61,376 nucleotides of DNA from Promethearchaeota archaeon. Lineage in GTDB: Archaea > Asgardarchaeota > Lokiarchaeia > Sigyniarchaeales > SOKP01. How positions within the stretch are numbered: position 1 is the stretch's first letter; the number at the start of each line of letters is the position of its first letter. The notes beneath the pieces were generated by a model. The model saw nothing but the letters and a program-made list of their open reading frames with translations, did not search any database and had not been told where the DNA came from. Position numbers and translations under genes: made by a program. The stretch covers positions 1 to 61,376 of the forward strand of contig JAUVXW010000028.1 of the NCBI GenBank assembly GCA_030603385.1. The letters run 5' to 3'. Shown in pieces: positions 9,837-61,376 of the stretch.

Positions 9837-9917
9837 ATTTATTTGAATTCTATTTGTTTTTTATTTGTTTTTTATTTTCGGAAACTTTTAATTATGAATT
9901 CCTAATTTTTAATTATT

Positions 9918-38704: not shown

Positions 38705-39398
38705 ATTTTACTGTCCGAATCTGTAAGCAATCTAACTAATTCTTCAATAAATACACTCTCCTCTTCTTCCATTGGAGAATTTCCCCATCGTCTTTGTGGT
38801 GATGGAAAAAAAAATTGGGAAAAATGGAAACTTCTTTATAAAGGCTCTCAGCGGTAGTGAGAGCGCTCACTAAAGTTAGACAATGATATCGACAAAAAAG
38901 GATTATTATAGAAAGTTAGATAGAATAGTCATGCAAAATAGAGATAAATATTAGATATTTTAATTTTCAGAATTATGTCGAGAATGAGCTAAAATTTTAA
39001 GAGGCCATATTTACATACAAAAAAGTATGTGATAAAATCATTAATTTTATTCAAGTTACTACAAAATTATCTTTTTCTAGAATTAATGAGATAAGAATGA
39101 TATAAAAAGAAAAAACGGTGACAGAAATCGAATAATTATTAATGGGTTAATCTTGCAGTGGAAATCTAATATTTTTGATCTTTTTCTAATGAATCTGATT
39201 TTAAAATATCTTGATAAAAATCAAATTTATTAAATGCTTCTTTAACATAGAAATAATATTTTCTTAGAAATATCAAATCCTTATCAAATCGATATATTGT
39301 TGATTTACTAGAATTTTTATATTTCTCTTTCCAATAATTAAATAAAAATATTAAGAATTTAGATCATTTATTATTAATAAAAAATACCCAATATTGGG

Positions 39399-40700
39399 AT
39401 GAATATGGAATACATTAAGAATATCTCTGACGAAATTGATAAAATCGGATTTAAGGCATATGGTAAAATCATAGAAATAGAATTTGTAGATGGAGTTATA
39501 CATAGGTATGAAAATGTTCAAAAGAAAATTTTTGATGATTTCAGGAACGCTGATTCACAAAAAGATTATTATGTTAATCACATCCAAAACAGCAATCTTG
39601 ATTATGATACTATTAAAGAGGGAAATAGATCCGATATTGAGGTATTGAAAGATCGACAACGTAATCTAGTAACTCAATTTGTGGATTATAACTTGAGAGC
39701 ATTGGCAGAATTGTTAGAAGAAAAAACTATTGATCTTCAACCTCAATATCAGCGAAGATATCGTTGGAATGATGAAAGACAATCGAAATTAATAGAATCA
39801 TTTATAATGAATGTTCCAGTTCCTCCAATATTTTTAAATGAAGATGAATTTGGAAAATATTCTGTTATAGATGGTAAACAACGATTAAATACTATTCAAA
39901 GATTTCTTACAAGTGAATTAGAACTAGTTGGTCTAGAAGTATATAGAGATTTTAATGGAAAAACTTTTTCTGATCTACCATTAATATATCAAAATTATAT
40001 AAAAACTCGAGCTGTTTTGAGGGCAATTATAATACTCAGCGAATCTGATGAGGATATTAAATACAAAGTTTTTCAACGTCTAAATACTGGAGGTGTAAGC
40101 TTAAACGCTCAGGAGATACGGAATAGTGCTTATCCTGGAGATTTAAATGATTTGATTTTGACATTGTCTGAGAATTCAACATTTCACAAATTATTAGGAG
40201 TAGATGATATAAATGAATCAAAAATTTATCAAGAAATGAAGGATGTAGAATATGTACTCAGATTTTTCACTTTTTTTGAGAATCCAAACTATTTTTCAGG
40301 AGATATTGCTTGGAAAATGAGTGATTTCATTAGAAAAAATCAAAGGATGGATAGAAGTAAAATTATAAAATTTGAAAAGAAATTTCTATCTACAATTAAT
40401 TTTATTTATAGATTATTTGGTGAATATGCTTTTAAAAGATGGTGGGAAACTAAGGGTGAATGGAAGAAAAAAATTACAACGCCATTGTTTGATGCTGTAA
40501 TATTCGCATGTGTAGACCGTGATGAAAGTCTTTCAATACCGAATGATTTTGATAAGGATGATTTTATCATAGAATATAAAAAACTTTTCTCAGATAAAGC
40601 TTTTGATGATTCAATTACTTATCACACAGGTACTTCCCCTGCCTTTAACACACGGAAGGATAAGGTCTATAAATTAATAACTGTTTCCTTAGAAAGGTAA
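39399..40700 (+). CDS. KTSC-domain + DUF262 (GmrS/ParB-like) fusion protein
   Basis: N-terminal IGF...IEIEFVDGVIHRYENV...FDDFRNADSQKDYYVNHI is KTSC-like; PQYQRRYRW, LIESFIMNVPVPPIF, VIDGKQRL, FQRLNTGG, QEIRN are DUF262 motifs. Confidence 0.85.
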   Translation: MNMEYIKNISDEIDKIGFKAYGKIIEIEFVDGVIHRYENVQKKIFDDFRNADSQKDYYVNHIQNSNLDYDTIKEGNRSDIEVLKDRQRNLVTQFVDYNLRALAELLEEKTIDLQPQYQRRYRWNDERQSKLIESFIMNVPVPPIFLNEDEFGKYSVIDGKQRLNTIQRFLTSELELVGLEVYRDFNGKTFSDLPLIYQNYIKTRAVLRAIIILSESDEDIKYKVFQRLNTGGVSLNAQEIRNSAYPGDLNDLILTLSENSTFHKLLGVDDINESKIYQEMKDVEYVLRFFTFFENPNYFSGDIAWKMSDFIRKNQRMDRSKIIKFEKKFLSTINFIYRLFGEYAFKRWWETKGEWKKKITTPLFDAVIFACVDRDESLSIPNDFDKDDFIIEYKKLFSDKAFDDSITYHTGTSPAFNTRKDKVYKLITVSLER

Positions 40701-40707
40701 AGACTCA

Positions 40708-41403
40708 ATGATAACTTCAAGTGCCTATGATATGTTTCTTAAATCCTTAGAAATTGCCAGAGGATTAATTCAATTAGATACGTATAGCGTACCACCTAAA
40801 CCAGAAGATAAGAAATATGTTTATGGTTTACGAGGGGGTTCTGTAATATTGATTGTTGCATCATTTGAAGAATTTTTAAATAGTTTACCCGATACCCATT
40901 TAGATGTCATAAAAAGACACATCAGAAATATTGATTTTTCAAAATTACCTGGTAAATTTATAATAACAAATGTTTCTAGGACATTATTTGAATTATCAAA
41001 GAATAAAGATATTGGAAAAATACCAGATGTAAAAAAAACTTGTAGATCTATTATTAATGATGAGATAAATACTTCAGTTTTCAAATTACAAGGTTTTAAT
41101 CCTAGACCAAAGCAGATAAATAATCTTTTTAAGGTAATTGGATTTGAAAATATTTTTGAACAAATAACAGAAAGATTTCAAAAAAGATGGCATAAAAGAA
41201 TCAGTACATATCTTATTATGGATAAATTAAACGAGATAATTGAAAGACGGAATAGGGTTGCTCATAATGCATCTATGACATCTCATATAACTAAAAACGA
41301 TTTAAATGAGGCAATTGATTTTCTAAGGATTTTAGCTCGGTTATTAGATATGACATATAAAAAACGAATAAATTATATCTGTATATCAGCAAAAATCACG
41401 TAA
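40708..41403 (+). CDS. HEPN domain protein (RiboL-PSP/MAE_28990-like), putative RNase effector
   Basis: LIVASFEEFL N-terminal helix and RRNRVAH (Rx4H) motif; 7 nt downstream of the DUF262 gene. Confidence 0.85.
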   Translation: MITSSAYDMFLKSLEIARGLIQLDTYSVPPKPEDKKYVYGLRGGSVILIVASFEEFLNSLPDTHLDVIKRHIRNIDFSKLPGKFIITNVSRTLFELSKNKDIGKIPDVKKTCRSIINDEINTSVFKLQGFNPRPKQINNLFKVIGFENIFEQITERFQKRWHKRISTYLIMDKLNEIIERRNRVAHNASMTSHITKNDLNEAIDFLRILARLLDMTYKKRINYICISAKIT

Positions 41404-41513: not shown

Positions 41514-42185
41514 TTATAGAAATCTGATTTTTTCCAGGTAATAGTCAAAATCTATTCCTTTATTGAGCGAATCATCATATTCCATTAATTTTTTGAGTTT
41601 TAAATGAGAATATTTTGTATGGTATAGAACTCTTAACAGAAATACCGGGAGTATTCCAATATAATAGCATTTAAGATAAAATAATTCTTTTTCATATCCA
41701 AGTAATCTACAGGATATAACTTCATGTAAATTTAAGGCTTCTCTAATCTCATTTTCAGTTAAATCCCTAACAAGTAATCCCATATTTTTATCCAATTCTT
41801 TTTTTGAAATGTTAGGGTTTCGAGAAGCAATATAACTTCTAAATTGTTTTCTATCCTCTTGATTCAAATATTTCATAACAGCAGCAATAACTTTTTCAAA
41901 ATATTTTTCTTCATTAAGTAAAAATGCTCTTATGTTTAAGGCCATATCAGGAGCTATATTAAAATCATTTTTATTCCTAACTCTACAAGAAATTGTAGTG
42001 GACCTACTATGCCAAAAATGTCTTTTTCTTTTATTGATAATATAATATTCTGAATCATCTTTGTCAACAATGTTGTTAACAACTTCCAGGATTCTTTTAC
42101 TCATTTTTCTCAACATTTGGAAATATTGTAAACCTATTATGGAATATAAATCAATGAAAATATATAAATAATTATTATTAATCAA
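41514..42185 (-). CDS. Hypothetical protein (start probably at an internal Met)
   Basis: 223-codon ORF with no recognised motif. Confidence 0.6.
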   Translation of the reverse strand: MINNNYLYIFIDLYSIIGLQYFQMLRKMSKRILEVVNNIVDKDDSEYYIINKRKRHFWHSRSTTISCRVRNKNDFNIAPDMALNIRAFLLNEEKYFEKVIAAVMKYLNQEDRKQFRSYIASRNPNISKKELDKNMGLLVRDLTENEIREALNLHEVISCRLLGYEKELFYLKCYYIGILPVFLLRVLYHTKYSHLKLKKLMEYDDSLNKGIDFDYYLEKIRFL

Positions 42186-42930
42186 TTAATTTAATCCATG
42201 TTTACAATATTTCAATGCGAAATCTTGAAGTTAAGATGCTTTCTCAAAATATTCCGCCGGAAAAAGTGAAATTTCACCATAGTGATTTATTGAATTATCC
42301 TATTAATGGGATATTTCAAAAAATGTTCGAAAATTAGAACTTTTCTAAATTTTGGAAAAGCGAAAGATCTTTAAAGTTAATGAATTAAAAATTGTTAAAA
42401 ATTTTTAACTCGAGAAATTGTGCAAGAATTTGCATTGTTTGAAAATTTGAAGAATTTTTCGAATTTAGAAATCTGAAAAATTTTTTACTTTCGAAAATAA
42501 TTCAGAGATTATTGAAAGCAAATTTGCGATAAATTAAGTTACCTTAAGATTGCATTATTGCACTTTTAAGGTTGAAAGTTAAATAATTGAACTTTTTGAA
42601 AAAGCTCATAGTTGACTTTTTGAAATTTATTAAATCTTTTTTTAATCAGTATAACCACATTCTCTTCTTATTTTCATAATTTCTTCTTTATTTCTTTCCT
42701 TAAACTCTATATAATATTCATTTTCATTTTTAGAGAAAAATAGACATTCTTCGAAAGCTAAACGTGTGAAAAAGCGACTGATTTTTTCTTTTAAAACTTC
42801 AAGACCAGGACTTATTAATCTTGCTTTCCAGAATTTTTCTTTATATTTTTTATTTATAATATTTATAAATTATTTTCGATTTTTAATACTTATGATATGA
42901 CATGATGAGTTTAGATGATTAAGTGAAAAA

Positions 42931-43368
42931 TTATTTCTTTCTTTCTTTGTCCCTCTTTATTGAATCTTCACATTCACTCAAGACCTTTAAAATATAAATT
43001 TTAATCGAATCAAATTCATTTTCATCAAGACGACGAATATAAGGTATTGCCTGTGAAAGATAATTATAAATATAGTTTTTATCATATGTAGGATAACCTC
43101 CTTTATTTAATTCTTTTCTTAAATCAGAGTATATATCTTCATATCCCTCAAGTTTATATTTCTTAACAAGCTCATCGAGTGATAATGACAAAACATCCTC
43201 CCTAATGTAAGAATATAGCATATCAATATGCTTAATTGATTTAAGTAGTAGTATACCACCACCAGCAAGAATTAAGATATTTTCTATATTGTCTTCCCTC
43301 TTACTTGGTCTCCATAATATAACATTACCATTTGGTAATAAATATTTATTAACTATCATTCCTATCAA
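42931..43368 (-). CDS. Hypothetical protein
   Basis: 145-codon ORF with protein-like composition. Confidence 0.6.
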   Translation of the reverse strand: MIGMIVNKYLLPNGNVILWRPSKREDNIENILILAGGGILLLKSIKHIDMLYSYIREDVLSLSLDELVKKYKLEGYEDIYSDLRKELNKGGYPTYDKNYIYNYLSQAIPYIRRLDENEFDSIKIYILKVLSECEDSIKRDKERKK

Positions 43369-43399
43369 TTTGTTTATATCTTAAAAAAAAATTAAAATT

Positions 43400-43693
43400 T
43401 TAAATTGTTCTTTTTCCATTCTCGTCTAATTTCTTTACTTTTTCACATATCGTACCTTGTTTCACTTGGTATCTAATATATTCACCACTATATCTATCTA
43501 ATTCGCAATTTAACACTTCTGTTATATTACTATAATAAATATTTTTCGAGTATCCCAAAGCAATTAAATCTGTAATTATTGGCATTTCAACAAGATCTTT
43601 TGGTTGTTTTCCTTCTACCCAATGACCTTTTTTCTTATCTATATATGTATTACGTATTTCATCAAGATCCAGAGGTTTATTTTCTCCAAACTT
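43400..43693 (-). CDS. Hypothetical protein, possibly 5'-frameshifted
   Basis: Frame is open 36 codons above the ATG at 43585 (KFGENKPLDLDE...); the TTG behind the GGAAGTGA RBS-like motif is one base out of frame. Confidence 0.4.
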   Translation of the reverse strand, partial: KFGENKPLDLDEIRNTYIDKKKGHWVEGKQPKDLVEMPIITDLIALGYSKNIYYSNITEVLNCELDRYSGEYIRYQVKQGTICEKVKKLDENGKRTI

Positions 43694-43773
43694 TCAATTT
43701 TTATTCACTTCCTTTTATTTTTTACTCTCTTTCCTGAATATTTTTTTCATGGTCATGGAGCCAGGAGAAAATT

Positions 43774-44673
43774 TTAATGATCTAAATATTTTTTATTTTC
43801 TTCTATATAATATTTAAAAAACCATTGAATAAATGGGAATGCATAATCTTTTTTATCAGCTTTTTCTAAAGCTCTATAATATTGATCCCTAAATTTTGCA
43901 TCTATATCAATCAAAGGATAATTATTCTTATTTAAAATATAGGTTATTAAAAAACGTGCCACACGCCCATTCCCATCTCCAAATGGATGTATAGCAACAA
44001 ACCGATAATGCATTACAGAAGCAACAAATACAGGATGTAAAATATCCTTTTTATCATTATACCATTCAAATAGATCTTTTAAAAGCATTTCAATTTCAAT
44101 TTTAGACATAGGAGGTTCATAATTACTTCCTTCTATAAAAACAGGATAATTCCTAATAACTCCAGCGATATTATGATCAGTTATTTCAAATAATTCTCTA
44201 TGCCATTTACATACTAAATCCATTGATAATTCTTCAATAGTAGTAACTATTTTTTCATAAATGTTCATATGAGCTTTTGTTTCAATAACATCATTAAGCG
44301 GTTTATTATTTGGTGTAATGTTATTATTTATCACTTTTTCTGTTTCACGTAAAGTTAACGTTGATCCTTCAATTTTACTTGAATGATGAGTAAATCGAAT
44401 ACCAAAACTTCTTAGGTTTTTCGCTTTGATTGATGAAGGCATTGAATTAAAAGAATCTTGATATTTTTTAGTTATCTTTTCTATAATTGGAATCCATCTG
44501 TCTTTAACTACCTCATAAGAAAAATCTTCCCATAATTGAACTAAATCATCATAAGGAGGTATCTCTACCCCAACATACTTCTCTTTTTTAAAAAATTTCT
44601 TATCCTTTCGATAAGAATAGGATAAATAATTATATTCTCTTCCATTAACTTTATGTTTTATTATTGTTGCCAT
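43774..44673 (-). CDS. Fic family protein (AMPylase) with internal inhibitory helix
   Basis: HPFGDGNGRVAR catalytic motif; SSKIEG matches (S/T)xxxE(G/N); basic beta-rich N-terminal extension. Confidence 0.92.
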   Translation of the reverse strand: MATIIKHKVNGREYNYLSYSYRKDKKFFKKEKYVGVEIPPYDDLVQLWEDFSYEVVKDRWIPIIEKITKKYQDSFNSMPSSIKAKNLRSFGIRFTHHSSKIEGSTLTLRETEKVINNNITPNNKPLNDVIETKAHMNIYEKIVTTIEELSMDLVCKWHRELFEITDHNIAGVIRNYPVFIEGSNYEPPMSKIEIEMLLKDLFEWYNDKKDILHPVFVASVMHYRFVAIHPFGDGNGRVARFLITYILNKNNYPLIDIDAKFRDQYYRALEKADKKDYAFPFIQWFFKYYIEENKKYLDH

Positions 44674-44763
44674 ATGATCTTATTATCACCACAAATATAT
44701 ATAATTTTTGCTTTTTATATAAAATGTGGAGATAATTTTTTCTATTTTTTCTTAGTAAATATA

Positions 44764-44913
44764 CTAAGATTTCTTTTCTTTCACAACAAAATAAATAAAA
44801 CCCTTAATGTCTTTAGTACCAATTACTTCAAAACCAATTTTATCAAGTTTTTCTTTTGCTGCTAAAAATTCTTTAGCAAATTTCATTTCAGAATCCATTT
44901 CTAAAGACATCAT
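44764..44913 (-). CDS. Small hypothetical protein (49 aa, not in the ORF track)
   Basis: Manual translation MMSLEMDSEMKFAKEFLAAKEKLDKIGFEVIGTKDIKGFIYFVVKEKKS*; TATA-like tttaaata upstream on the minus strand. Confidence 0.5.
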   Translation of the reverse strand: MMSLEMDSEMKFAKEFLAAKEKLDKIGFEVIGTKDIKGFIYFVVKEKKS

Positions 44914-45152
44914 TATTTAAAATAAATTCTAATCAACTATTTAAATGTATTGGTAAAAATGCCCAAAAACTAGTGAAAAAAGCTATATTTTAATCAATTT
45001 TTTAAGGATTAGGATAATAATCATTATCTAAATTATCATCATCAAATTATAATTTAGTAATTAATAATTTATTATACTCTTTGACAATATAAAGCTTGTA
45101 TTAATAATTTAGTTTAAAAAGAAAAAAGATATCATTAATATTGGTGACTAAA

Positions 45153-45686
45153 ATGGCAAAAAAACCGAGTCAAGAACCAAGATTAAAACCAGTATTAAAA
45201 AGATACATATCGAGAATTGGAGAACTAGGAAAAGAAATAAAAGTTCCTAAGGTCGAGTACGGATATATATTTCATTATCCTAAAGGAACTATTACTCAAA
45301 AAAGACAAAAAAAGTTTTTAGGAAGAAGTTTTCAAGCATTTAAGCCAAAAAGCGAGAATACAATCGTTATCAACCATAAAACAGAAATTTCTCCTGAACA
45401 TGCTAAATCGTTGGCAAGTAATCCAAAATTGAAAGCAGAGGTTTATTCTGATATAATAAAAGTATTTTTAATAAAAAATGTAGAATATGTAGTAAAACGG
45501 CAAGAAAATGCTTTTTTTCTCTCAGTACAGATCTTTCTTGAAAATGAAGGTAAAATTTCTATGAACCAATTTTATAAAGCAGTTCGTAATTTATTTTCAG
45601 CAGATCTTTATTCAGTTATAATTATCCAAGAAAAATGTTCAGGAAAAGTAAAAGGGAAAGATGTTGATTCTCCATATCACATTTAA
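45153..45686 (+). CDS. Hypothetical protein, possibly DUF2299-like
   Basis: ATG 5 nt after GGTGA; alpha/beta pattern ending ISMNQFYKAVRNLF recalls DUF2299/YbjN-like folds (by eye). Confidence 0.55.
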   Translation: MAKKPSQEPRLKPVLKRYISRIGELGKEIKVPKVEYGYIFHYPKGTITQKRQKKFLGRSFQAFKPKSENTIVINHKTEISPEHAKSLASNPKLKAEVYSDIIKVFLIKNVEYVVKRQENAFFLSVQIFLENEGKISMNQFYKAVRNLFSADLYSVIIIQEKCSGKVKGKDVDSPYHI

Positions 45687-45714
45687 TAAGAATCTCTTCT
45701 TTTCTTTATCCAAT

Positions 45715-46308
45715 TCACTCACTTCCTTTTATTTTTTTAAATAATATTTTTTTATCTATTCTTCTCATTCTATCAAATAGGTCTTTCTTACTAATTTTAA
45801 GATATTTCATCGTAGTTTCAAGATCTTTATGTCTTAGAATTCCAGATACATCTTCCAATGCCATTCCATTGTTTAATAGGTGTGTTGCTCGTGATCTCCG
45901 GAAACTATGGGTAGTTATAGGTTTTTTAATTTCTGTTAGTTCTACACATTTTTTCACAATTTTATAGGCCATAGGATAACTAAGTTGAGAAGATCGATTG
46001 GATTGAAATACAAAATCTTGAGATTTAATCTTTTTATCCTTACAAAAGCGTTCAATTTCTCCATAAATATGTGGTGGTACTGGTTGAGTTTCCCAATTCC
46101 TCTTGTCTGTTTTTTGATCTCTCAGTAATAAATAAGTGTAATCATCTTCATTTCTATAATCTTCATATTTGCTATTTAAAGCTTCTGAAACTCGTAAAGC
46201 ACCATAATAACAGATTCTCATTAATAAAAGATCCCTAGAGGAGATTCCAGGAGTTTGCCATAATATTTCGATTTCTTTCTCTGAAAGCCATTCTTTTGAA
46301 TATTTCAT
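45715..46308 (-). CDS. Tyrosine recombinase/integrase, catalytic domain only (197 aa)
   Basis: ALRVSE (R), QKTDK (K), HSFRRS (HxxR), LRHKD (H), TTMKY (Y). Confidence 0.93.
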   Translation of the reverse strand: MKYSKEWLSEKEIEILWQTPGISSRDLLLMRICYYGALRVSEALNSKYEDYRNEDDYTYLLLRDQKTDKRNWETQPVPPHIYGEIERFCKDKKIKSQDFVFQSNRSSQLSYPMAYKIVKKCVELTEIKKPITTHSFRRSRATHLLNNGMALEDVSGILRHKDLETTMKYLKISKKDLFDRMRRIDKKILFKKIKGSE

Positions 46309-46496
46309 TTTTCTTTTGTTTTAATTAATTTTTTTCCATGTGTGAATTCTGAAATTGTATTTATCATATTTATTAAATAGTAGTTAATATCTGTTCTGAC
46401 CCCATTAATAGCTCCTAGTAAATCTTTAGGATCCAAGTTTTCTTCAATTGAAATATCTAAACCTTCAAAATTACCTTTTACTTCTATTTTAGTCAT
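46305..46496 (-). CDS. Small hypothetical protein translationally coupled to the recombinase
   Basis: ATGA overlap with the recombinase start. Confidence 0.55.
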   Translation of the reverse strand: MTKIEVKGNFEGLDISIEENLDPKDLLGAINGVRTDINYYLINMINTISEFTHGKKLIKTKEK

Positions 46497-46973
46497 TTTT
46501 TACACTTTTATTTATTTTTATAAATTAAAGATTTTATAGGAAAATCTCTACTTATGGATTGGATGATTATTTTTATTTATAAAGACACTTATCTTTTGAT
46601 TAACAAAAGTAAAGATTTTACCGTATTTTCTTTACTTAAAAAACAGAATAATTCATTTATAAAATATGATCATTATGCATATTTTCACATTAATAAAAAA
46701 AAAATAGAGAAAGAATCCTGGCTAATATTTTATTCATGGAGGAATAAAAGAGGTTCATTCTCTAAGGTTATTATTATTTTTCTAATATTTATTTATGCAT
46801 GAAAGGAATATTTTTTGGATAATAAATATAATAAATGTATTTTTACAGAAATAATTAGTTTTAAATAACCCAAAAAAGGCAAATTTCAAACAATTTTTTT
46901 AAAGTTGATATTTTCATTGTTAACACATCAAAAATGATCTTATTGTGTTATTTGCATTGTTTTTATGTAGTTA

Positions 46974-47086
46974 TTCTCAATTTTATTAAAACGCTTATTT
47001 TTTCCACAAAAACCTTTTAATATGTGCAATTCTTTCTCAACTTTATCAAAACGCTTATTTTTTCCACAAAAACCTTTTAATATGTG
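46974..47086 (+). repeat. Two 53-bp direct repeats at 60-bp period (2 mismatches) in the divergent control region
   Basis: ttctcaaYtttatYaaaacgcttattttttccacaaaaaccttttaatatgtg at 46974-47026 and 47034-47086. Confidence 0.9.
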
Positions 47087-47273
47087 TTAAATTCAATAAT
47101 TTTGGAAAAGAAAAAGAAAGAGTGATAAATCTTATCAATAATAACATTTATAAATAAATCTGATCTAATTTTAAGCAATAAATGTTTTTATGCAAAAAAT
47201 TGCACAAAAATCTTTAAAATTTAACAAAAATAAAAATTTTTAATTAAAAATTAAATAAAAAAGGTATGAAAAT

Positions 47274-48383
47274 ATGGCAGAAAAGCAAGGCCGTGTTTCA
47301 AGTAAGAGAAGCCTGGGGGAAAAATACAGCGATCTCGATAAAAAATTCAAGGTTCTCACCGTTTTCGGTATTATTTTCTGTATTGCTGGTTTACCATTGA
47401 TAATCTGGGGAGGTATTTGGGCATATAACACTTATGCTATTGGAGGCGAAACACCAGAAGAAACACCAACTACAAAACTATATTCTACTTTTGCATTAAT
47501 TTCGAATGTTGATGGGGAAATTGTTTCTCCTTTTGTTGAGATGGATATTTGGGGGCAAAAAGATAGCGCAGATTTTAGTCTGGGCATGGAAGATATTACT
47601 GATCTAACAAACTTTGAAAGAATAGAAACAAATACAGATGCTGATGATATAGAAATTGATTTAAGAGATGGCGACTATTATTGGGCAGAGATTACAGGAA
47701 ATAGTTTATATCAAAACACATTCTATTTACTCTATGGGGGTGCGAATCATGATTATATCAGATATGGTCATGATCCAAGTTCCGCTGTTCCTTTTAATAT
47801 ATTCGTTAAAAATACTGGTGCTGCAATAACCATTCCTGGTCATCAGACCAACGGAAATTTTACTGGTGTATTGGATGTTCCAATCAATAGTAGAACTCCT
47901 GCGAATTGTCATTATGGCGATAATTGGGCACTTAGCACAACTGAATTTGCTGCATTGACACAAAGGCAACAAGAAGTCTATTGGGATGAAGGAAATTGGT
48001 GTGATCAATTTCCAACTTATGATCCTACACTTGATATCGTAAATGAATATGATCGTGCTTGGGAAAAAATTACAAATGCACCTGCATTAAAATTTGTAAT
48101 GAATGATACAATCAGCGTGGTTGATGGTGAAGCGACTCAAATCAATTGTACAATTGGTCGGGGGTATTCTATTGATTTTTTGATTTCGGGTGTTAATCTC
48201 TATATGGCATGGTATGAAGGAATTGATTTCGATCCTTTTCCTTATACATTTGACTTCGAGATGTGGTTCGGTGTTAATATTAGTATAACAACCGTTTATA
48301 GCGGTAGAGCAAATGTTTTCGGAGCATTCTCATCTTTAGCTTGGGACACGACATATAATGAAATCGGCTTAGTTGCTGCATAA
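47274..48383 (+). CDS. Type II membrane protein (basic N-tail, one TM, acidic beta-rich ectodomain); putative virion/envelope protein
   Basis: TM VLTVFGIIFCIAGLPLIIWGGIWAY; sequons NFT, NDT, NCT, NIS; first gene of the module. Confidence 0.65.
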   Translation: MAEKQGRVSSKRSLGEKYSDLDKKFKVLTVFGIIFCIAGLPLIIWGGIWAYNTYAIGGETPEETPTTKLYSTFALISNVDGEIVSPFVEMDIWGQKDSADFSLGMEDITDLTNFERIETNTDADDIEIDLRDGDYYWAEITGNSLYQNTFYLLYGGANHDYIRYGHDPSSAVPFNIFVKNTGAAITIPGHQTNGNFTGVLDVPINSRTPANCHYGDNWALSTTEFAALTQRQQEVYWDEGNWCDQFPTYDPTLDIVNEYDRAWEKITNAPALKFVMNDTISVVDGEATQINCTIGRGYSIDFLISGVNLYMAWYEGIDFDPFPYTFDFEMWFGVNISITTVYSGRANVFGAFSSLAWDTTYNEIGLVAA

Positions 48384-48406
48384 TTTGCCTTATTAAAGGT
48401 GATATT

Positions 48407-49834
48407 ATGAAAATATCAAATAAATTTTTTTTTCTTTTTTTTCTTTCTATATTTATTCTAATACCAATTAGTTTATTTTCTCCATTTGTAAGTGCTGGAG
48501 AAGTTGCTGATCCGATGATTTCTACGGATATTCTATCTGTTGATTTGGGTACATTTCAAGACAATACACTTGGAGATGGAAGTGGAAAATTTGACTATAT
48601 TACTGGCGGATTTGATCTTATTTCTTTTGAGAATTTGGGTCAGTATGGACAACCAAACCCTGAAACGAATGAAGTTATATATAGGGCCAAAGTGAAATGG
48701 GGATTTGAAGTAAATGCGTGGACATCAACTTTATTTAGGAATATATATCCATTTATAAATATTGAAAATATAGAAGAAGTTGCTTTTTTATCGATACAGT
48801 ATTGGAAACATATTCCTTGTATTTGGCCTAGATTAATTGAAGGTCAAACAAGTACTCCTCAATATAAAATAAAATTCTATGATATAGATTATGGGACAAG
48901 TAAGACAGAATATGTTTATAATTATGCGGTTGAGGAAGTAGATGTACCTGGAAGTTATTTACAACATAATTATCATGGTTATATTCCAGTTACTGTTGGG
49001 ATTGATCCGGGATTAGCATATTCTGGTGAAATTAAGGTTGCTGGGCAAACATTTACAGTTCCCACATTAACATCTGATATTCTTTATACTAAAATAGCGG
49101 ATATGAGAGGAGGGGAATGTGGAAGTTATGAGGATAGATATACGGATCAAGGAATAGATAGTGCATCTGTGACTGTTGATGTGCCAGAAGGAACCTGGAG
49201 TTCTACGACAACAAAACTTACTGATTGGTTTAATGATGAAGATGTTGGATCAATAACAAAAAAATCAAATGATACATTAACGGTACAACAATCTGTATAT
49301 GATTTATCATATAAAGGAGATACAAAACATGCTTCTGGAACCAGTAATGAATTTATGTTTAATTTACCAATTCATATACAACCAGAAGTGACGAAGTTAC
49401 GAAATTATTTCAATTTAAAACGCGGTGGATTTCATTGGTATACATGTTGCGGAAAATATAGGAAAAGTCCTTGGACTGTAGATGAAAGGATAACAAGAGA
49501 TGTATCTGTTAGTGTTCAAAATGTCTTCGTACATTACGATTTTGAAATGGAAACAGAGTTATTTATGACTTGCCAATTTGAAGGGGAGATTAGTGAATCA
49601 TTTCTTGAAGATCCAAACTTAATAATTTCAGATATGATCTGGGATGCATCAATTTGGGGAGATGAAACCGTACATATTAAACTCCCAAAAACAACCAAAT
49701 GGTGGGAGGAAATTATAATCTGGATACTTATTATTGCTGTTGTCGGAATTAGTTTTTATATTATATTAAAATATATAAAAAGTAAAAGCAGAAGACCACA
49801 TTATATCGTAATCAATAAACAGGGGGCAAAATGA
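48407..49834 (+). CDS. Type I membrane protein (signal peptide, beta-rich ectodomain, C-terminal TM, basic tail); candidate spike
   Basis: Signal ending ...PFVSA; TM IIIWILIIAVVGISFYIIL; tail KYIKSKSRRP; GGTGA RBS. Confidence 0.7.
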   Translation: MKISNKFFFLFFLSIFILIPISLFSPFVSAGEVADPMISTDILSVDLGTFQDNTLGDGSGKFDYITGGFDLISFENLGQYGQPNPETNEVIYRAKVKWGFEVNAWTSTLFRNIYPFINIENIEEVAFLSIQYWKHIPCIWPRLIEGQTSTPQYKIKFYDIDYGTSKTEYVYNYAVEEVDVPGSYLQHNYHGYIPVTVGIDPGLAYSGEIKVAGQTFTVPTLTSDILYTKIADMRGGECGSYEDRYTDQGIDSASVTVDVPEGTWSSTTTKLTDWFNDEDVGSITKKSNDTLTVQQSVYDLSYKGDTKHASGTSNEFMFNLPIHIQPEVTKLRNYFNLKRGGFHWYTCCGKYRKSPWTVDERITRDVSVSVQNVFVHYDFEMETELFMTCQFEGEISESFLEDPNLIISDMIWDASIWGDETVHIKLPKTTKWWEEIIIWILIIAVVGISFYIILKYIKSKSRRPHYIVINKQGAK

Positions 49835-51042
49835 TGAGAAAGGGGATAATAATCATTGTTTTACTTTTGATTTCCGCATGTATAATTCCTTTTATCATTT
49901 TTAGTTTACAATTTTTTGCGCTTGACCCGGGTAATGGTGGGGGAATTCTTCCTGATTATATACCAGATCCAGAGTATGATATAGGAATTCCTGTGCTTGA
50001 TGAAATTACTCCTGAAGTTGATTATGATGGAAGTATCAGATTATATTGGGATATAGTATCACCATATACAATATCACATTATCGTGTTAAGAGAATATTA
50101 GGTTCTGGTGTATGGGGGTTTATTGCTCATAATGTAGAAAATAAATATTATATTGATCTTAATCCACAAGAAGGAGTATATCAATATAAGGTTCAAGCAG
50201 TTGCTATAATTGATGGATCAAGTTATTATTCTGAGTATTCAAATGTTCAATCAGTTCAGGTGGTATCTCAAACTACTAATATTCCTGTACTTAAAGCAAT
50301 TGACGGTCCTTGTACTGATGGAACTGTTGAATTAGATTGGAATGCAGTTGAAGGTTATCTTGGTGGAACTATTATGGGATATCATATTTATAGATATTCC
50401 GCTTCAGAAGGATGGAAAGAAATTGATGGTGTTTCTTTTGGAATAACTGAATATACTGATGATATTGAAGTAAATGGAGAGTATCAATATTACATTAAAT
50501 CTATAACTCTTATCCATTTAGATATAGTAGAAAGTGACCCTTCAAATATTCAAACTGTAGTTGTTGATATACATGTAGAACCACCACCACCACCACCACC
50601 AGAACTTCTTCCTTCAAATCCATCAATAATAATAAATTCTGGAGTTGAAACAACCGATTCATTTGAAGTCACACTTTCACTTTATTGTGATCGTGCTGAT
50701 GAGATGCAAATTCAGATATCTATTGGAGTCTGGACTGACTGGGTTGATTATACAACGACATATATTATAACATTACTTGGAGTTGCAGATCCTGATTATC
50801 CTGATTTTAGAGTTAGTGTTATATTTAGAAATGATAATGGAACAACTGAAGATGCGGGGTATGGTGATATTTATGATGATATAACATATGAGGAACCAAC
50901 ACAGGAAGAAGAGGAAGAAGAGGAAGAACCATCTCCAGAAGAAGATTACACATTAATATATGTTTTACTTGGAGTTCTTGTAGGATTAATTGGAATAGGT
51001 GTTTTTCTAAAATATAGAAAGCAAATAATAAAATCTAAATAA
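49831..51042 (+). CDS. Membrane protein with two fibronectin type III-like domains, poly-Pro hinge, Ig-like domain, acidic linker and C-terminal TM
   Basis: GSIRLYW...YQYKVQAV...SEYSN and GTVELDW...YHIYR...YQYYIKS...SDPSN; (cca)7 at 50581-50601; poly-Glu. Confidence 0.8.
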   Translation: MMRKGIIIIVLLLISACIIPFIIFSLQFFALDPGNGGGILPDYIPDPEYDIGIPVLDEITPEVDYDGSIRLYWDIVSPYTISHYRVKRILGSGVWGFIAHNVENKYYIDLNPQEGVYQYKVQAVAIIDGSSYYSEYSNVQSVQVVSQTTNIPVLKAIDGPCTDGTVELDWNAVEGYLGGTIMGYHIYRYSASEGWKEIDGVSFGITEYTDDIEVNGEYQYYIKSITLIHLDIVESDPSNIQTVVVDIHVEPPPPPPPELLPSNPSIIINSGVETTDSFEVTLSLYCDRADEMQIQISIGVWTDWVDYTTTYIITLLGVADPDYPDFRVSVIFRNDNGTTEDAGYGDIYDDITYEEPTQEEEEEEEEPSPEEDYTLIYVLLGVLVGLIGIGVFLKYRKQIIKSK

Positions 51043-57300: not shown

Positions 57301-60300
57301 TATTTATACAAATTTATTATAAATTGGATTTAGTTCATTCAAAATCATTTGATACTAATGGAATTTATCGATACAGATGGGTTGTTTTAGGTTCAATTTA
57401 TTATACTCAATGGGTTACATTTGAGGTTGTAGATCCTGTTCCTAATTTTCACGCTATTTCTGAAAGTGATCTTACAACGAGATGGGTATTACAAGGAGCG
57501 GATATTTCTGCTGTTCAAAATTTTACTGATGATATTAGTGGGAGTAATTGGAATTTATATGGTGTTAGTGAAGATTCATTTTATGCTCATTTAAGTGAAT
57601 CTTATTTATTTGATAATACTACAGCTTCAGGTATTGATGATTGGGCTTATTCTGGATTTAGTTTTCCTGCTGATGACTCTGTTCCTAATGGTATTTGTTG
57701 GGATGGATCTCATCTTTGGGTTGTTGGATCTTCTACAGATGAAGTTTATAAATATAACACAGCAGGAGTTTATCAAGGAGTTAGTTGGGATGTTGGTGGT
57801 CAGACTACAATTGCAAGAGGAATTACTTGGGATGGAACATTTTTTTGGGTTGTTGGATATGTTAATCAAGAAGTTTATAAATATAATGCAGCAGGAGTTT
57901 ATCAAACATTTAGTTTTAGTGTAAGTGTTCAAGATACGAAGCCAACTGATATTACTTGGGATGGAACTCATTTATGGGTTATTGGTAATCTTAATGATAG
58001 AGTTTATAAATATAATACAGCGGGAGTTTATCAAGCAGTTAGTTTTGATGTTAGTGGTCAAGTATTAGGTCCAAAGGGAATTAATTGGGATGGAACTCAT
58101 TTTTGGGTTGTGAATGATATTGGTGATGAGGTTTATCAATATAATGCAGCAGGAGCTTATACAGGATATCATTTTGATGTTGGTGCTCAAAATACATTAC
58201 CAACAGCAATTACTTGGGATGGAACTCATTTATGGGTTGTTGGTGATGTATATGAAACAGTTTTTCAATATGAAACTGTTTTAGACGTTTCCAAAAAATA
58301 TCAAGGTGGTGGCTATATGTATATACAAACTAATACAACAGAACTAATTTCTTTAAAATCAACTGCTTATGGATCTAATTATACATTAAGTTCAGGAGAT
58401 TATTTCGAAATCGATTTTCAAACAAGTTCAGATTCTTTAATCAATTTAATTTTGTTAAAAGATGGCGTAGTTAATAAAACTTTAACTTTAAGCCAATCTG
58501 GAAATCCTAATTTCAATAGACATACAGTTCAAATATCTGTTGGTGAAGATGTTGAATTTGACATGTTAAGGACCAGCTCTACATTTGAAGATATAGATTA
58601 TGTTAGAATATATGATATTAAAACATATAAATATACTATAACAGGAGATTATGCTGATTTTATGGTAGGATCTAAAAATGATTATGAAACTTATTTAACA
58701 CCAGATGAATATAATCTTAGAATCTGGGATCCCTATGACGGTGAAGTAAAAGTAAACAAAGATATTACAATCAGTTCTGGTTATAATTATGAAATTTATG
58801 AACCAACAGAGTCAATACAATGTCGATTGGTATTATTTTCTGAAGCCGATCCCCTTAAATCGTTAACATTTACAGATTATCATATTGAAGTAAATCGGTC
58901 TTTAAATGGAGAATACAATAAATTTTCACTTTTAGAAAATCTTTTCTACGCAGATGATAATAGTTCTATTCATATTTTTATTGATGTATATGATCGTTTT
59001 AATGCTTTAATAGATTCGTTTGATAAATTACCATCAAGTTATATTGATTTAGAACTTGAAGTATATTCATTAGAAATTATTAATTTGATGACACAAAAAA
59101 CTACAATGGATATTAATGGATCACACATATTTGATATAGCTTCAGGAAGGTGGATTAATTTTATGCTTTCAAAACGATATTATCAAATAGGATACTTTAA
59201 TCCAAATAATGTTTATATCCAATTTATTATTAAGTTAGACTCCAATCAAGTTTATGAGCTAAATATGTCCCGAATTTGTAATCTTTATTATACTAATCAA
59301 CGAATGGAATCTTTAAGTTTTTACCAGTTTAAGACTTACATTAATGGAACGAGAATTATAAACAATATGTTTTATGCTACAGATGGAGAACATAAAGGAA
59401 TTGAAGTAAAGGATTTATCTGATATTAGTGTTTTAAATTACACATATGTAGAAGGAACTCAAGAATATAACCAAGTCTCTCTTATTTTAACTCAATATAG
59501 CTTAAAAGTAATGAGTTTACAATTAAATTTTAATCATATCAATATTACAAGAAATCCTGATTATTATACAAGTTCTTATTATTGGTCAGAATGGCTTGGA
59601 CCAAGAGAAACTGCTGAATATTTTCTTTTTCCAGGATATTATGTAATTAATATAACAAATTATGAAGATGGTGGATGGTCTAAATATGATTATACATTAA
59701 ATGGAGATGATTACATATTAATTGGCTCCAATAATACTATTTATAATGTTTTAGTTAATATAGCAAATGTAAATGCGACAATTGGCAATCAGATTACTAA
59801 TGTTCAAATAGATTTAACAAACCAGAATTCTAACATTAACAACACAATTATTAATATAGAAATAAATTTAGGTAATATAAATTCAACATTAGGTTCGTTT
59901 TTAGTTAATATAGATACAGCGATATCAAACATTAATAGTTCCATCATTTCTGAAATCGTATCGTTAGGAGTTAATATAGATAACGTAAATTCTTCATTAT
60001 CAAATCAGATGCTAACGATAAATACAGATATATCTAATTTAGATAGTTCAATATAATCTCAATTTATAACACTGGGGGTGGATATATCAAACATTAATGG
60101 TTCAATTGTAAATCAAATTTTAGCTCTGGGAGTGGATATAACAAACATCAACACATCATTATCGAATCAGATCCTTAGTTTGGAAGTCGATATTGAAAAT
60201 ATAGATGCTTTGATTATTGAACAAATTCTATTGGTGATTGCTGATATTGAAAATATAGAAACTGTGATTGATGATCAAACTCTTGTTATTCTTGCTGATA

Positions 60301-61376
60301 TAACTAACCTAAATAGCACCCTATTAAACCAGATGGTATCTCTTGGTGTGGACATAACAAACATTAATGCAACGATATATAATCAGATTTTGAGTTTACA
60401 AGTGGATTTAACAAACATTAATAGTTCGATCACCTCTCTCCTAACTAATATTGGATTGAATATCTTAAATCTTGAATCTGATATAAATACTTTATATCTA
60501 TTTACAAACACATCAATTTGGAATCTAAATAGTGCGATGAATAGCTCTTTTATTTATTTGGAAAATAATATTTATTCTATTAACCAGAGCATTTCTACAT
60601 TGGTTATTGGAATAGATAACAGCATTTCGCTTGTAAATGCTACTATTACGTCAATGTTTACCGAAATGAATCAACAGTTTATAGTGGTTCAATCAACATT
60701 AAATTATTCGTTTGCGTTTTTAAATCAATCAATAATACAATTGGCAAATGATATAACAGAAAACCACGTTATATTATATAATCTAATAGAACAGAGAGCA
60801 AATGAGATTGATAGTAGCCTAATTGATGTTCAAACTCTCATTAATCTTGTAAATAATACTGTTGCTGATGAAAGTCTTGTTATCCAAACTCTTGTTAATC
60901 TTATTGGTGCAAACATAACAAATAATCATATAATCATCAACAATCTACTTAATTTAATCGATAATAATATTACTAATAATAATATACAACTCGTTTCTAT
61001 TTTGGAAGTAATTGGAAACAATATTACTACGAACCATTTTGTAATCCAAACTCTTATAGATGTAATAGGTAATAACATAACATATAATCATATAGAATTA
61101 CTTACGAATTTGAATCTTATAAACACTACAATATCTCAAAATCAAATCGAACTCATAAACAGATTATTATTTATCAACAATACGATAAATGATATGATGT
61201 TTGAACTCACCAATCAACTATTATTTTTGAATGGTACTATTTATAACGCTGTCTTAAATTTGAGTACCTCTATTGAGTTTGGAGTAGATATGGTTCTTGG
61301 AAACATAACGATTACTTATCAACAGAATGAATTTTTAACTGAATTATACAAGGAAACTATGTTTTCCCAATTGCTT
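54375..61376 (+). CDS. Giant adhesin/spike: signal/TM, two LamG-like domains, jelly-roll-like domains, 5-repeat beta-propeller and long 18-residue-repeat coiled-coil stalk; in-frame TAA at 60054-60056; runs off the window
   Basis: NTWYHIKIVFD...FYIDG and DAWIHIKVSFD...VWIDG; WDGTHLWVVG repeats; manual translation shows the same frame open for 440 codons after the TAA with the same repeat. Confidence 0.8.
57660..58275 (+). repeat. Five 129-nt (43-aa) tandem beta-propeller blade repeats
   Basis: tgggatgga at 57699, 57828, 57957, 58086 and 58215 (exact 129-nt period). Confidence 0.9.
59870..61170 (+). repeat. 18-residue (54-nt) coiled-coil-like repeats of two types
   Basis: NINSSIxNQIxxLGVDIT type (about 59870-60430) and LIxxIGNNITxNHxxIxT type (about 60840-61170). 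Confidence 0.8.

What the first reader, a model, noticed from the sequence alone, without database searches (positions are those of the whole stretch)
45715..61376. Integrated enveloped-virus-like element of an Asgard archaeon with no recognisable capsid family
Seen: a recombinase diverges from a 14-kb same-strand module. Gene order is type II membrane protein, type I membrane protein, FN3 membrane protein, six highly basic proteins, a two-TM protein with basic N-tail, and a giant LamG/propeller/coiled-coil adhesin. I recognise no HK97 or double-jelly-roll capsid, portal, terminase or conjugation ATPase here. Established: pleolipoviruses use a spike plus an internal membrane protein, and spindle-shaped viruses use a two-helix hydrophobic coat plus an adhesin. 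Inference: a membrane-budding particle that packages protein-condensed DNA, possibly a new virus or vesicle-borne element family. Replication and packaging genes may lie beyond the window.
Basis: partly seen in the sequence, partly recalled or inferred. Interest (0 to 1): 0.9.

Follow-up and report, generated by a model that had tools for sequence, protein, structure and literature searches.

The report
Capsid-less mobile element of Asgard archaeon
The window ends in a cut-off copy of a mobile element of Asgard archaea; relatives carry the same block of membrane-protein, giant-adhesin and small-ATPase genes on circular DNAs of 32 and 112 kb, and it looks like a virus-like particle or transfer machine with no known capsid.

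Summary
The genes described are there. A 197-aa tyrosine recombinase diverges from a same-strand run of membrane proteins, six very basic proteins, a two-helix protein and a giant LamG/repeat adhesin that runs off the contig.

It is not core genome. Close relatives join the flanking host genes directly, and the lead protein is in 6 of 154 genomes of the order.

The run is the front half of a conserved cassette of about 20 kb. In relatives the cassette continues with a CPBP protease, about seven small membrane proteins and a 333-343-aa P-loop ATPase.

The cassette occurs in four settings:
- beside homologous small integrases in chromosomes;
- on a 24.5-kb one-strand contig from Loki's Castle;
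- on a 31.8-kb circular contig with MCM;
- on a 112-kb circular IMG/VR contig with PolB, ThyX and ADDT.

No capsid, portal, terminase or conjugation family was found. The ATPase is nearest to Zot/pI-, His1- and B251-type virus ATPases, and the gene order parallels wyrdviruses. However, no small protein matches the His1-type coat, and the type I membrane protein has no known fold.

Best reading: a truncated, possibly decaying provirus-like element of an undescribed group. A virus is not proven, and a non-viral transfer element remains possible. The basic proteins are accessory, not core. The scan held no earlier finding of this cassette on other DNA.

The parts
38705..41403 (+). Start of the inserted island. 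Synteny with relatives ends after the U32 peptidase gene. Holds a KTSC-GmrSD/DUF262 gene (39399-40700) and a RiboL-PSP HEPN gene (40708-41403). This is probably a separate defence pair, not shown to belong to the element.
41514..45686 (.). Low-GC (0.24-0.26) left block. Contains ORF223 (41514-42185, -; 90% identical copy on C41, also on C15), ORF145, a Fic-domain protein (43774-44673, -) and p181 (45141-45686, +; weak DUF2299; a homologue sits near a p369-like gene in G058:C248). Probably the regulatory or accessory part of the element.
   Evidence: the Loki's Castle contig has a comparable block upstream of its integrase
45715..46308 (-). 197-aa tyrosine recombinase, catalytic domain only. 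There is a 96% identical copy on C41. Homologues of 189-202 aa lie just upstream of the cassette in two other elements.
46305..46496 (-). 63-aa ORF overlapping the integrase start. No family hit.
46974..47086 (.). Two tandem 53-nt repeats (96% identical) in the integrase-p369 intergenic region. Candidate regulatory or origin element.
   Evidence: D9
47274..48383 (+). p369, type II membrane protein and first conserved gene of the cassette. 33 homologues in 5.8 billion clusters. No Pfam, PHROG or Atlas match.
48407..49834 (+). p475, type I membrane protein and second conserved gene. The AF2 model is all-beta with very long strands and has no fold match.
49831..51042 (+). p403, a membrane-anchored repeat protein with a Pro-rich and an acidic linker. 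Homologues of 283-687 aa are in the related elements where this position was assembled (not in the C713 circle or the short G007 and G055 contigs).
51088..54059 (+). Six basic proteins (93, 108, 96, 189, 100 and 359 aa; pI 10.1-11.4). Homologues occur only in the closest relatives (four in L029, one in L024). Accessory sub-module.
54061..54378 (+). tm105, basic N-tail plus a two-TM hairpin with a conserved GE..G..P.I.LG loop. The family has 33 clusters at 50% identity. A homologue lies inside the back block of the 112-kb element. Not His1/SSV-coat-like.
54375..61376 (+). Giant adhesin: signal/TM, 2x LamG, GH114_assoc-like domain, 43-aa tandem repeats (putative propeller), 18-aa repeat stalk. 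Interrupted by an in-frame TAA at 60054-60056 and cut by the contig end.

Best explanation
Window ~41.5-61.4 kb is the left part of an integrated mobile element of an Asgard archaeon. It is cut by the contig end and may be decaying. The element belongs to an undescribed group defined by a conserved cassette of about 20 kb, nearly all on one strand.

Cassette order: p369 (type II membrane protein) - p475 (type I membrane protein) - repeat membrane protein - [optional basic proteins] - giant LamG/propeller adhesin(s) - CPBP/Rce1-like intramembrane protease - about seven small membrane proteins, several of them ~80-100-aa two-TM hairpins - a 160-aa protein - a soluble 333-343-aa P-loop ATPase.

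Shown: the cassette travels with interchangeable replication and integration modules, namely a small tyrosine recombinase, MCM, or a PolB-based replisome.

Inferred mechanism: the cassette builds and releases a membrane-based transmissible particle without an icosahedral capsid. The small hydrophobic proteins and p369/p475 would form the coat or envelope. The adhesin would bind the next host. The CPBP protease would mature a component. The Zot/His1-ORF16-like ATPase would drive DNA loading or extrusion, as proposed for spindle-shaped wyrdviruses. In this sub-lineage the basic proteins may condense the DNA. The integrase inserts the element at a variable hotspot next to the U32 peptidase gene.
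For: Mobile, not core:
- G006, G003 and G023 join the U32 peptidase gene directly to the orthologue of G000:C54:58895-59812. Window 38.7-61.4 kb plus C54:59.8-79.2 kb is therefore an insertion.
- p369 is in 6 of 154 genomes of the order and in 1 of the 53 other genomes of the genus. p475 is in 3 of 41.

Same cassette on independent replicons:
- G037:C713: 31,791 bp, 141-bp terminal direct repeat, MCM.
- IMG/VR UViG 3300028610_002494: 111,837 bp, 144-bp DTR, about 190 genes on one strand, PolB, RFC, FEN1, topoisomerase, ThyX, dUTPase, ADDT.
- Loki's Castle contig: 24,520 bp holding only left block + integrase + full cassette.
- Chromosomal copies beside homologous 189-202-aa integrases.

ATPase:
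- hhalign to the His1 ORF16 ATPase gives 76% probability, E 2e-5, against less than 13% for three P-loop controls.
- The nearest ESM-Atlas structure clusters are 72-100% viral with AAA/Zot, and one is the 'DnaA-like' Zot cluster of Thermoproteota.

Layout: it parallels wyrdviruses, which run MCP - adhesin (carbohydrate-binding or six-bladed propeller) - gene block - pI-like ATPase.

Hallmarks: no capsid, portal, terminase or relaxase family in any complete relative.

Co-occurrence: G007 and G055 carry both the front half and the ATPase half on separate contigs.
Against: - No particle, virome or CRISPR-spacer evidence. G000 has no CRISPR array.
- No structural protein has a detectable relative in any known virus. 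tm105 family versus His1 VP21 0.6% and SSV1 VP3 0.4%. All other families score below 30% against SSV1 and His1 ORFs.
- The ATPase core matches VirB4 (Z 9.5) and the TcpA coupling protein (Z 9.1) as well as Zot (Z 8.9).
- No Pfam Zot hit.
- The C713 ATPase (505 aa) is not detectably homologous to the others.
- The back half with the ATPase is absent from the G000 assembly, and the adhesin carries an in-frame stop. This copy may be inert.
- A 96% identical integrase on C41 sits next to unrelated cargo. The link between integrase and cassette in this genome therefore rests on the parallel loci.
Confidence: 0.55

Rival explanations
1. A non-viral transfer or surface cassette of plasmids and integrative elements. 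The adhesin, membrane proteins and ATPase would form a cell-to-cell DNA transfer, secretion or adhesion apparatus, an archaeal conjugation-like system, rather than a virion.
For: - No capsid family anywhere.
- The ATPase core matches VirB4 (Z 9.5) and the TcpA coupling protein (Z 9.1).
- The replicons carry MCM, ParB-like and integrase genes typical of plasmids.
- A published 20.8-kb Atabeyarchaeia plasmid with seven TM proteins and a CAAX-like protease was read as a possible conjugative or secretion-like system (PMC11529989).
Against: - The ATPase is small (333-343 aa), soluble and single. No VirB4-size or VirD4-type ATPase and no relaxase was found.
- The nearest structure clusters are mostly viral Zot/AAA.
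- It has a specific profile similarity to the His1 virus ATPase.
- The 112-kb carrier has virus-typical nucleotide metabolism and DNA hypermodification genes (ThyX, dUTPase, dCTP deaminase, ADDT) and is classed as viral by IMG/VR.
Confidence: 0.25
2. A true but highly divergent spindle-shaped virus of the wyrdvirus/halspivirus lineage. One of the ~80-aa two-TM hairpins of the back block would be a His1-type major capsid protein that has drifted beyond detection.
For: - Same gene order as wyrdviruses, and an adhesin with LamG and putative propeller parts.
- ATPase similarity to His1 ORF16.
- C713 has two paralogous ~80-aa two-TM proteins (hhalign 48%, E 2e-4), as fuselloviruses and some wyrdviruses have two MCP paralogues.
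Against: - Wyrdvirus MCPs hit His1 VP21 at 99.4% HHsearch probability. Every hairpin family here scores 1.2% or less against VP21.
- None of the cassette families, each run against all listed SSV1 and His1 ORFs including SSV1 B277, scored above 30%.
- The cassette is several times larger than a whole wyrdvirus morphogenetic module.
Confidence: 0.12
3. An ordinary host cell-surface gene island that merely lies next to an unrelated small integrative element.
For: - A 96% identical integrase on C41 neighbours a 9,117-aa host-like surface protein instead.
- GC of 47-58 kb (0.30-0.34) is host-like, whereas 41-47 kb is 0.24-0.26.
Against: - The cassette sits on two circular contigs and on a 24.5-kb contig without host genes.
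- Homologous integrases adjoin it in three independent loci.
- It is present in 6 of 154 genomes of the order.
Confidence: 0.03

Closest known systems
Wyrdviruses (spindle-shaped Asgard viruses; Medvedeva et al., preprint 10.1101/2021.07.29.453957) and Halspiviridae (His1)
   Same: - Asgard hosts from marine sediment.
- A morphogenetic block ordered small hydrophobic protein(s) - large adhesin (carbohydrate-binding or six-bladed propeller) - conserved block of unknown membrane proteins - soluble pI/Zot-like ATPase.
- Replication modules are interchangeable between relatives.
- Some members carry ThyX and dUTPase.
- ATPase profile similarity to His1 ORF16 (76%).
   Different: - No His1-type MCP detectable (1.2% or less, against 99.4% for wyrdviruses).
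- No B277 homologue.
- Extra conserved genes: p369, p475 and a CPBP protease.
- The cassette is about 20 kb, against a whole wyrdvirus genome of 15-20 kb.
- Carriers reach 112 kb.
'Guacar' MGE-9917 and the 20.8-kb plasmid of Atabeyarchaeia (Valentin-Alvarado et al. 2024, PMC11529989)
   Same: By description only:
- Guacar is a circular 26.3-kb Asgard element with all genes on one strand, at least 14 TM proteins, two giant orphan proteins (1402 and 1202 aa) and a tyrosine recombinase. It is CRISPR-targeted and 'neither virus nor plasmid'.
- The plasmid has seven TM proteins and a CAAX-like protease.
   Different: - Homology could not be tested because the sequences are not on hand.
- Different Asgard class and habitat (wetland soil).
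- No cassette-wide comparison has been published, as far as my searches show.
Pleolipoviridae (pleomorphic membrane-vesicle viruses of haloarchaea)
   Same: - Concept: no capsid; a type I spike, a small internal membrane protein and an NTPase.
- Variable replication modules; provirus forms with small integrases.
   Different: - The p475 model has no similarity to any solved structure. The library covers PDB releases to April 2026; whether the pleolipovirus spike entries (from memory, 2019) are in it was not checked.
- No PHROG or Pfam link.
- The giant adhesin and CPBP block are absent from pleolipoviruses (from my own knowledge).
'Enigmatic MGEs' of Asgard archaea (10H_0, 7H_42, Ga0114923_10000127; same preprint, section 8)
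   Same: Large (44-85 kb), CRISPR-targeted Asgard elements without known structural genes. They are suggested to be plasmids or viruses with unknown morphogenetic proteins.
   Different: - Not compared at sequence level.
- Those elements are described by PCNA, TFB, MazG and Topo mini-A. None of these appeared among the hits of the scans here, which covered ten larger C713 proteins and the 89 proteins of 110 aa or more of the 112-kb element.

Membership tests
Spindle-shaped viruses with His1/SSV-type coat (Halspiviridae, Fuselloviridae, wyrdviruses) | An ~80-aa major capsid protein with two hydrophobic helices, homologous to His1 VP21 or SSV1 VP1/VP3 | tested here: not met
   - tm105 family (35-sequence profile) versus VP21 0.6% and versus VP3 0.4%.
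- F18, F21, c82 and c76 versus VP21 all 0.5% or less.
- No PHROG hit, but the control (VP21 itself) reaches only E 0.029 on its PHROG, so that test is weak.
- Profiles for the back-block hairpins are thin (1-3 sequences).
Spindle-shaped viruses with His1/SSV-type coat | A soluble AAA+/Zot-pI-like morphogenesis ATPase (SSV1 B251, His1 ORF16) | tested here: inconclusive
   - hhalign A3 versus His1 ORF16 76%, E 2e-5 over 80 columns; versus B251 32%; controls below 13%.
- Atlas neighbours are viral Zot/AAA, TM 0.43-0.57.
- VIA Z 8.9 to Zot, but 9.5 to VirB4.
- No Pfam Zot hit.
- The ATPase is not in the window itself.
Spindle-shaped viruses with His1/SSV-type coat | A large terminal adhesin next to the coat genes | tested here: met
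   The 1893+433-aa adhesin has 2x LamG and 43-aa tandem repeats, directly after tm105. Wyrdvirus adhesins are annotated as carbohydrate-binding or six-bladed propeller.
Pleolipoviridae | A VP4/VP5-type spike fold and a VP3-type internal membrane protein | tested here: inconclusive
   The p475 model (pLDDT 71) has its best Z at 5.5 and Foldseek TM below 0.1 against PDB and BFVD. No PHROG hit. A missing match does not prove a different fold.
Tailed or icosahedral viruses (HK97 or DJR capsid, portal, terminase or FtsK-type packaging ATPase) | Presence of the hallmark capsid and packaging genes | tested here: not met
   - None in the window.
- None in the ten larger proteins of C713 or in the back block.
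- None among the 89 proteins of 110 aa or more of the 112-kb element at Pfam E<=1e-4 or PHROG E<=1e-6. Seven weak Pfam rows and 34 PHROG rows were not displayed.
Conjugative elements (type IV secretion-like) | VirB4-type and VirD4/FtsK-type ATPases, and a relaxase | tested here: not met
   There is only one small soluble P-loop ATPase. The VirB4 and TcpA similarity is limited to the shared RecA-like core (Z 9.1-9.5, 150 residues). No relaxase or T4SS Pfam family was found.
Integrated mobile element with tyrosine recombinase | Recombinase present, patchy distribution, insertion relative to syntenic relatives, extrachromosomal relatives | tested here: met
   The att sites could not be defined because the right end is missing.

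The most novel reading that the evidence does not exclude
The cassette encodes a new, capsid-less virion architecture specific to Asgard archaea. Its coat, spike (p369/p475) and maturation protease would be unrelated to any known virus. Its carriers range from 24 to 112 kb, which would make it a new family-or-higher virus lineage and the first large non-icosahedral, non-tailed Asgard virus group.
Probability: 0.25. Interest if true: 0.85.

Novelty: new variant of a known kind. Interest (0 to 1): 0.66.

Why it matters
Known Asgard viruses are tailed, DJR-icosahedral, spindle-shaped or rod-shaped. Several Asgard elements remain 'neither virus nor plasmid'.

This finding ties such elements together through one conserved orphan cassette of about 20 kb. 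The cassette moves between a 24-kb integrase element, a 32-kb MCM circle and a 112-kb PolB replicon. It therefore gives concrete marker genes (p369, p475, the tm105 family, the ATPase family) for finding them.

[quoted passage not shown] If it builds a transfer apparatus instead, it would be the first candidate conjugation-like system of Asgard archaea.

Both outcomes can be tested in the existing Lokiarchaeal and other Asgard enrichment cultures.

Tried and rejected
- No tRNA gene in the window, no Rfam family in 38-61.4 kb, and no flanking att repeat could be found because the right end is missing.
- The rest of the element was sought in G000 with C713 proteins (tblastn) and with the ATPase profile. 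Nothing was found.
- The end of contig C54 completes the insertion site but carries other cargo: a second integrase, OLD-like ATPase and ParB-like genes. It does not continue the adhesin.
- No CRISPR array in G000 by a k-mer scan.
- tblastn of tm105 and of the C713 ATPase against 50,697 phage records found nothing useful. His1 VP21 finds only itself and one haloarchaeal spindle virus there, so wyrdviruses are not on hand.
- IMG/VR scans with single p369, the p369 profile and the ATPase profile found only the 112-kb UViG.
- PDB sequence searches with the C713 ATPase found nothing. With the A3 profile they found only P-loop matches.
- The Protein Atlas feature search for p369 gave nothing above 0.76.
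- hhalign of all cassette families against SSV1 and His1 ORFs stayed below 30%.
- Records behind ENA loci could not be reached by the genome search.
- The Fylgjavirus provirus of L. ossiferum B36 is a DJR virus and unrelated.

Full report
**Observation.**
The window is the whole contig C50 of a 3.89-Mb, 58-contig genome. The genome has archaeal RadA and four actin-family genes, the best at 441 bits. That fits an Asgard archaeon.

The recombinase at 45715-46308(-) matches Phage_integrase (E 6.5e-26).

| ORF | Coordinates | Features |
|---|---|---|
| p369 | 47274-48383 | single N-proximal TM |
| p475 | 48407-49834 | signal peptide and C-terminal TM |
| p403 | 49831-51042 | N- and C-terminal TMs |
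| six basic proteins | 51088-54059 | pI 10.1-11.4, 29-34% K+R |
| tm105 | 54061-54378 | basic N-tail and two TMs |

The giant ORF has two Laminin_G_3 domains and a GH114_assoc-like domain. It also has 43-aa tandem repeats and an 18-aa repeat stalk. The stalk runs through an in-frame TAA (60054-60056) to the contig end. An Fn3 domain in p403 was not confirmed. Pfam and PHROGs give no capsid, portal, terminase or conjugation family.

**It is an insertion.**
In three same-genus genomes, the U32 peptidase gene (window 37442-38704) lies directly beside the orthologue of G000:C54:58895-59812. So window 38.7-61.4 kb and C54:59.8-79.2 kb are both inserted material, at least 42 kb in all. C54 carries a second integrase and other cargo.

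p369 occurs in 6 of 154 genomes of the order, and in 1 of the 53 other genomes of the genus. p475 occurs in 3 of 41.

**The module is half of a conserved cassette.**
Homologues of p369, p475, p403 and the adhesin are syntenic in chromosomal contigs of 71 and 84 kb. Fragments of the same order, each missing one or more of these genes, lie on several short contigs.

In those relatives the adhesin is followed, on the same strand, by:
- a CPBP/Rce1-like protease (E 1.4e-16);
- a 166-177-aa protein;
- two-TM hairpins of 75-97 aa;
- proteins of about 170, 200, 330 and 160 aa;
- a P-loop ATPase of 333-343 aa.

Four of the six basic proteins have homologues in one relative (L029), and one has a homologue in another (L024). 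Most relatives lack them, so they are accessory.

Homologous short integrases (189-202 aa) sit just upstream of p369 in two other loci.

A 24,520-bp contig from the Loki's Castle sediment holds only a left block, the integrase and the full cassette up to the ATPase. All of it is on one strand, with no host genes. One of its left-block proteins is 80% identical to a protein beside the 96%-identical integrase copy on G000:C41. I therefore place the left boundary of the window's element near 41.5 kb, where the low-GC region begins. This is an inference.

**The cassette rides on different replicons.**
G037:C713 is 31,791 bp with a 141-bp terminal direct repeat. It is nearly all on one strand and carries MCM, a DNA methylase, a radical-SAM protein, MoxR and VWA.

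IMG/VR UViG 3300028610_002494 is 111,837 bp with a 144-bp repeat, classed by IMG/VR as having direct terminal repeats. It has 25% GC and about 190 genes on one strand. The cassette wraps around its ends, and a tm105 homologue (45% identity) lies inside the back block. It encodes:
- PolB, RFC, FEN1, a topoisomerase and the primase large subunit;
- ThyX, dUTPase and dCTP deaminase;
- ADDT, methylases and an integrase.

It shows no capsid, portal or terminase family at Pfam E<=1e-4 or among the strongest PHROG hits. The second refutation criterion, a standard capsid or conjugation system downstream, is therefore also not met.

**What the parts resemble.**
ATPase. The model (pLDDT 81) has a generic RecA-like core: Z 9.9 to DMC1, 9.5 to VirB4, 9.1 to TcpA and 8.9 to Zot. 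Its nearest ESM-Atlas clusters are mostly viral AAA/Zot families and a 'DnaA-like' Zot cluster of Thermoproteota. SSV1 B251 carries that same annotation in its record. Its profile matches the His1 ORF16 ATPase at 76% (E 2e-5), against less than 13% for RadA, MoxR and an OLD-like ATPase.

Gene order. Published wyrdvirus tables give the order MCP (His1-like, 99.4%) - adhesin (carbohydrate-binding or six-bladed propeller) - ORFs including a B277-like protein - pI-like ATPase. The present cassette has the same logic.

Small hairpin proteins. The tm105 family comprises 33 clusters among 1.8 billion representatives. It scores 0.6% against His1 VP21 and 0.4% against SSV1 VP3. The other hairpins score 0.5% or less. 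No family reaches 30% against any SSV1 or His1 ORF.

p475. The model (pLDDT 71, long beta strands) has no match in PDB or BFVD.

The element is therefore not a member of the His1/SSV coat lineage on present evidence. Nothing links it to pleolipoviruses.

**Interpretation.**
That this is a mobile element is close to certain. A conserved membrane/adhesin/ATPase cassette combined with interchangeable replication modules is the pattern seen for morphogenetic modules of wyrdviruses and pleolipoviruses.

The 112-kb carrier has virus-typical nucleotide and DNA-modification genes. The ATPase leans towards virus morphogenesis ATPases. I therefore favour (0.55) a capsid-less, membrane-based transmissible particle.

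A conjugation-like or secretion-like apparatus of plasmids stays a serious rival (0.25). There is no particle evidence, and the ATPase core is ambiguous.

The copy in this window lacks its back half in the assembly and has a stop inside the adhesin. It may be a remnant.

**Literature.**
- The DJR provirus Fylgjavirus 1 of L. ossiferum and the NMV viruses are different.
- By description, the nearest published objects are 'Guacar' and a 20.8-kb plasmid with a CAAX-like protease, both from Atabeyarchaeia (PMC11529989).
- Guacar is a 26.3-kb circle with one-strand coding, at least 14 TM proteins, two giant orphan proteins and a tyrosine recombinase. Its authors left it unclassified.
- The 'enigmatic MGEs' of Medvedeva et al. 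are also close by description.
- Sequence homology to all of these could not be tested here.

**Limits.**
- The profiles for the back-block families are thin.
- Weak Pfam and PHROG rows of the 112-kb element were not all displayed.
- The read-laying step failed.
- The right end of the element is not assembled.

Noticed in passing
G000:C41:9869-38702 (L001, L002): A 96% identical copy of the 197-aa integrase diverges from a single 9,117-aa ORF (27 kb, about 9 TM segments). On its other side lies a plasmid-like block with ParB-like and PAPS-reductase-like proteins and a copy of ORF223.
   Followed up: partly
G000:C41:8920-8954 and about 9881-9915, versus window 45709-45742: A 35-nt sequence at the 3' end of the integrase gene is repeated on C41. 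The two copies flank a 254-aa Zn-ribbon gene that is absent from the window. It is a possible small insertion or an att-like site.
   Followed up: no
window 39399-41403: A KTSC-GmrSD/DUF262 fusion (E 7e-29) is tightly followed by a RiboL-PSP HEPN gene (E 6e-21). It is a candidate defence pair at the edge of the inserted island.
   Followed up: no
G000:C54:59974-79227 (L023): This is the other side of the same insertion hotspot. It holds a 371-aa tyrosine integrase with a C-terminal Zn ribbon, an AAA_15/OLD-like 548-aa ATPase with a PIN-like neighbour, a ParB-like 408-aa protein, and three paralogous 204-213-aa membrane proteins with identical acidic/Zn-ribbon tails.
   Followed up: no
window 46974-47086 and 47260, 51074, 52633: Two tandem 53-nt repeats lie upstream of p369. 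A shared 25-nt RBS/start block (AAAGG..GATAAAATATGGCAGAAAA) lies in front of p369, b93 and b100. This explains the shared N-terminal MAEK.GRV motif.
   Followed up: partly
L036-L041 (IMG/VR UViG 3300028610_002494): This is a 112-kb circular, 25% GC element with about 190 genes on one strand. It has an amino-acid:DNA transferase (ADDT), ThyX, dUTPase, dCTP deaminase and its own PolB/RFC/FEN1. The region at about 103-111 kb has few ORFs.
   Followed up: partly
L034 (JANBVM010000006.1, 37 kb): A contig carrying the cassette is filed in a 'Patescibacteria group bacterium' MAG from the Arctic Mid-Ocean Ridge. An ATPase homologue (P0095) is also labelled Patescibacteria. These are probably mis-binned Asgard or element contigs.
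   Followed up: no
L008:3522-3770 and 4425-4655 (G037:C713): Two paralogous ~80-aa two-TM proteins both start MGKVKKK (hhalign 48%, E 2e-4). Many cassette proteins in C713 begin with a short Lys-rich arm before the first TM.
   Followed up: partly
window 23557-30282: A 2,241-aa ORF lies in the host part of the window. It was not examined.
   Followed up: no
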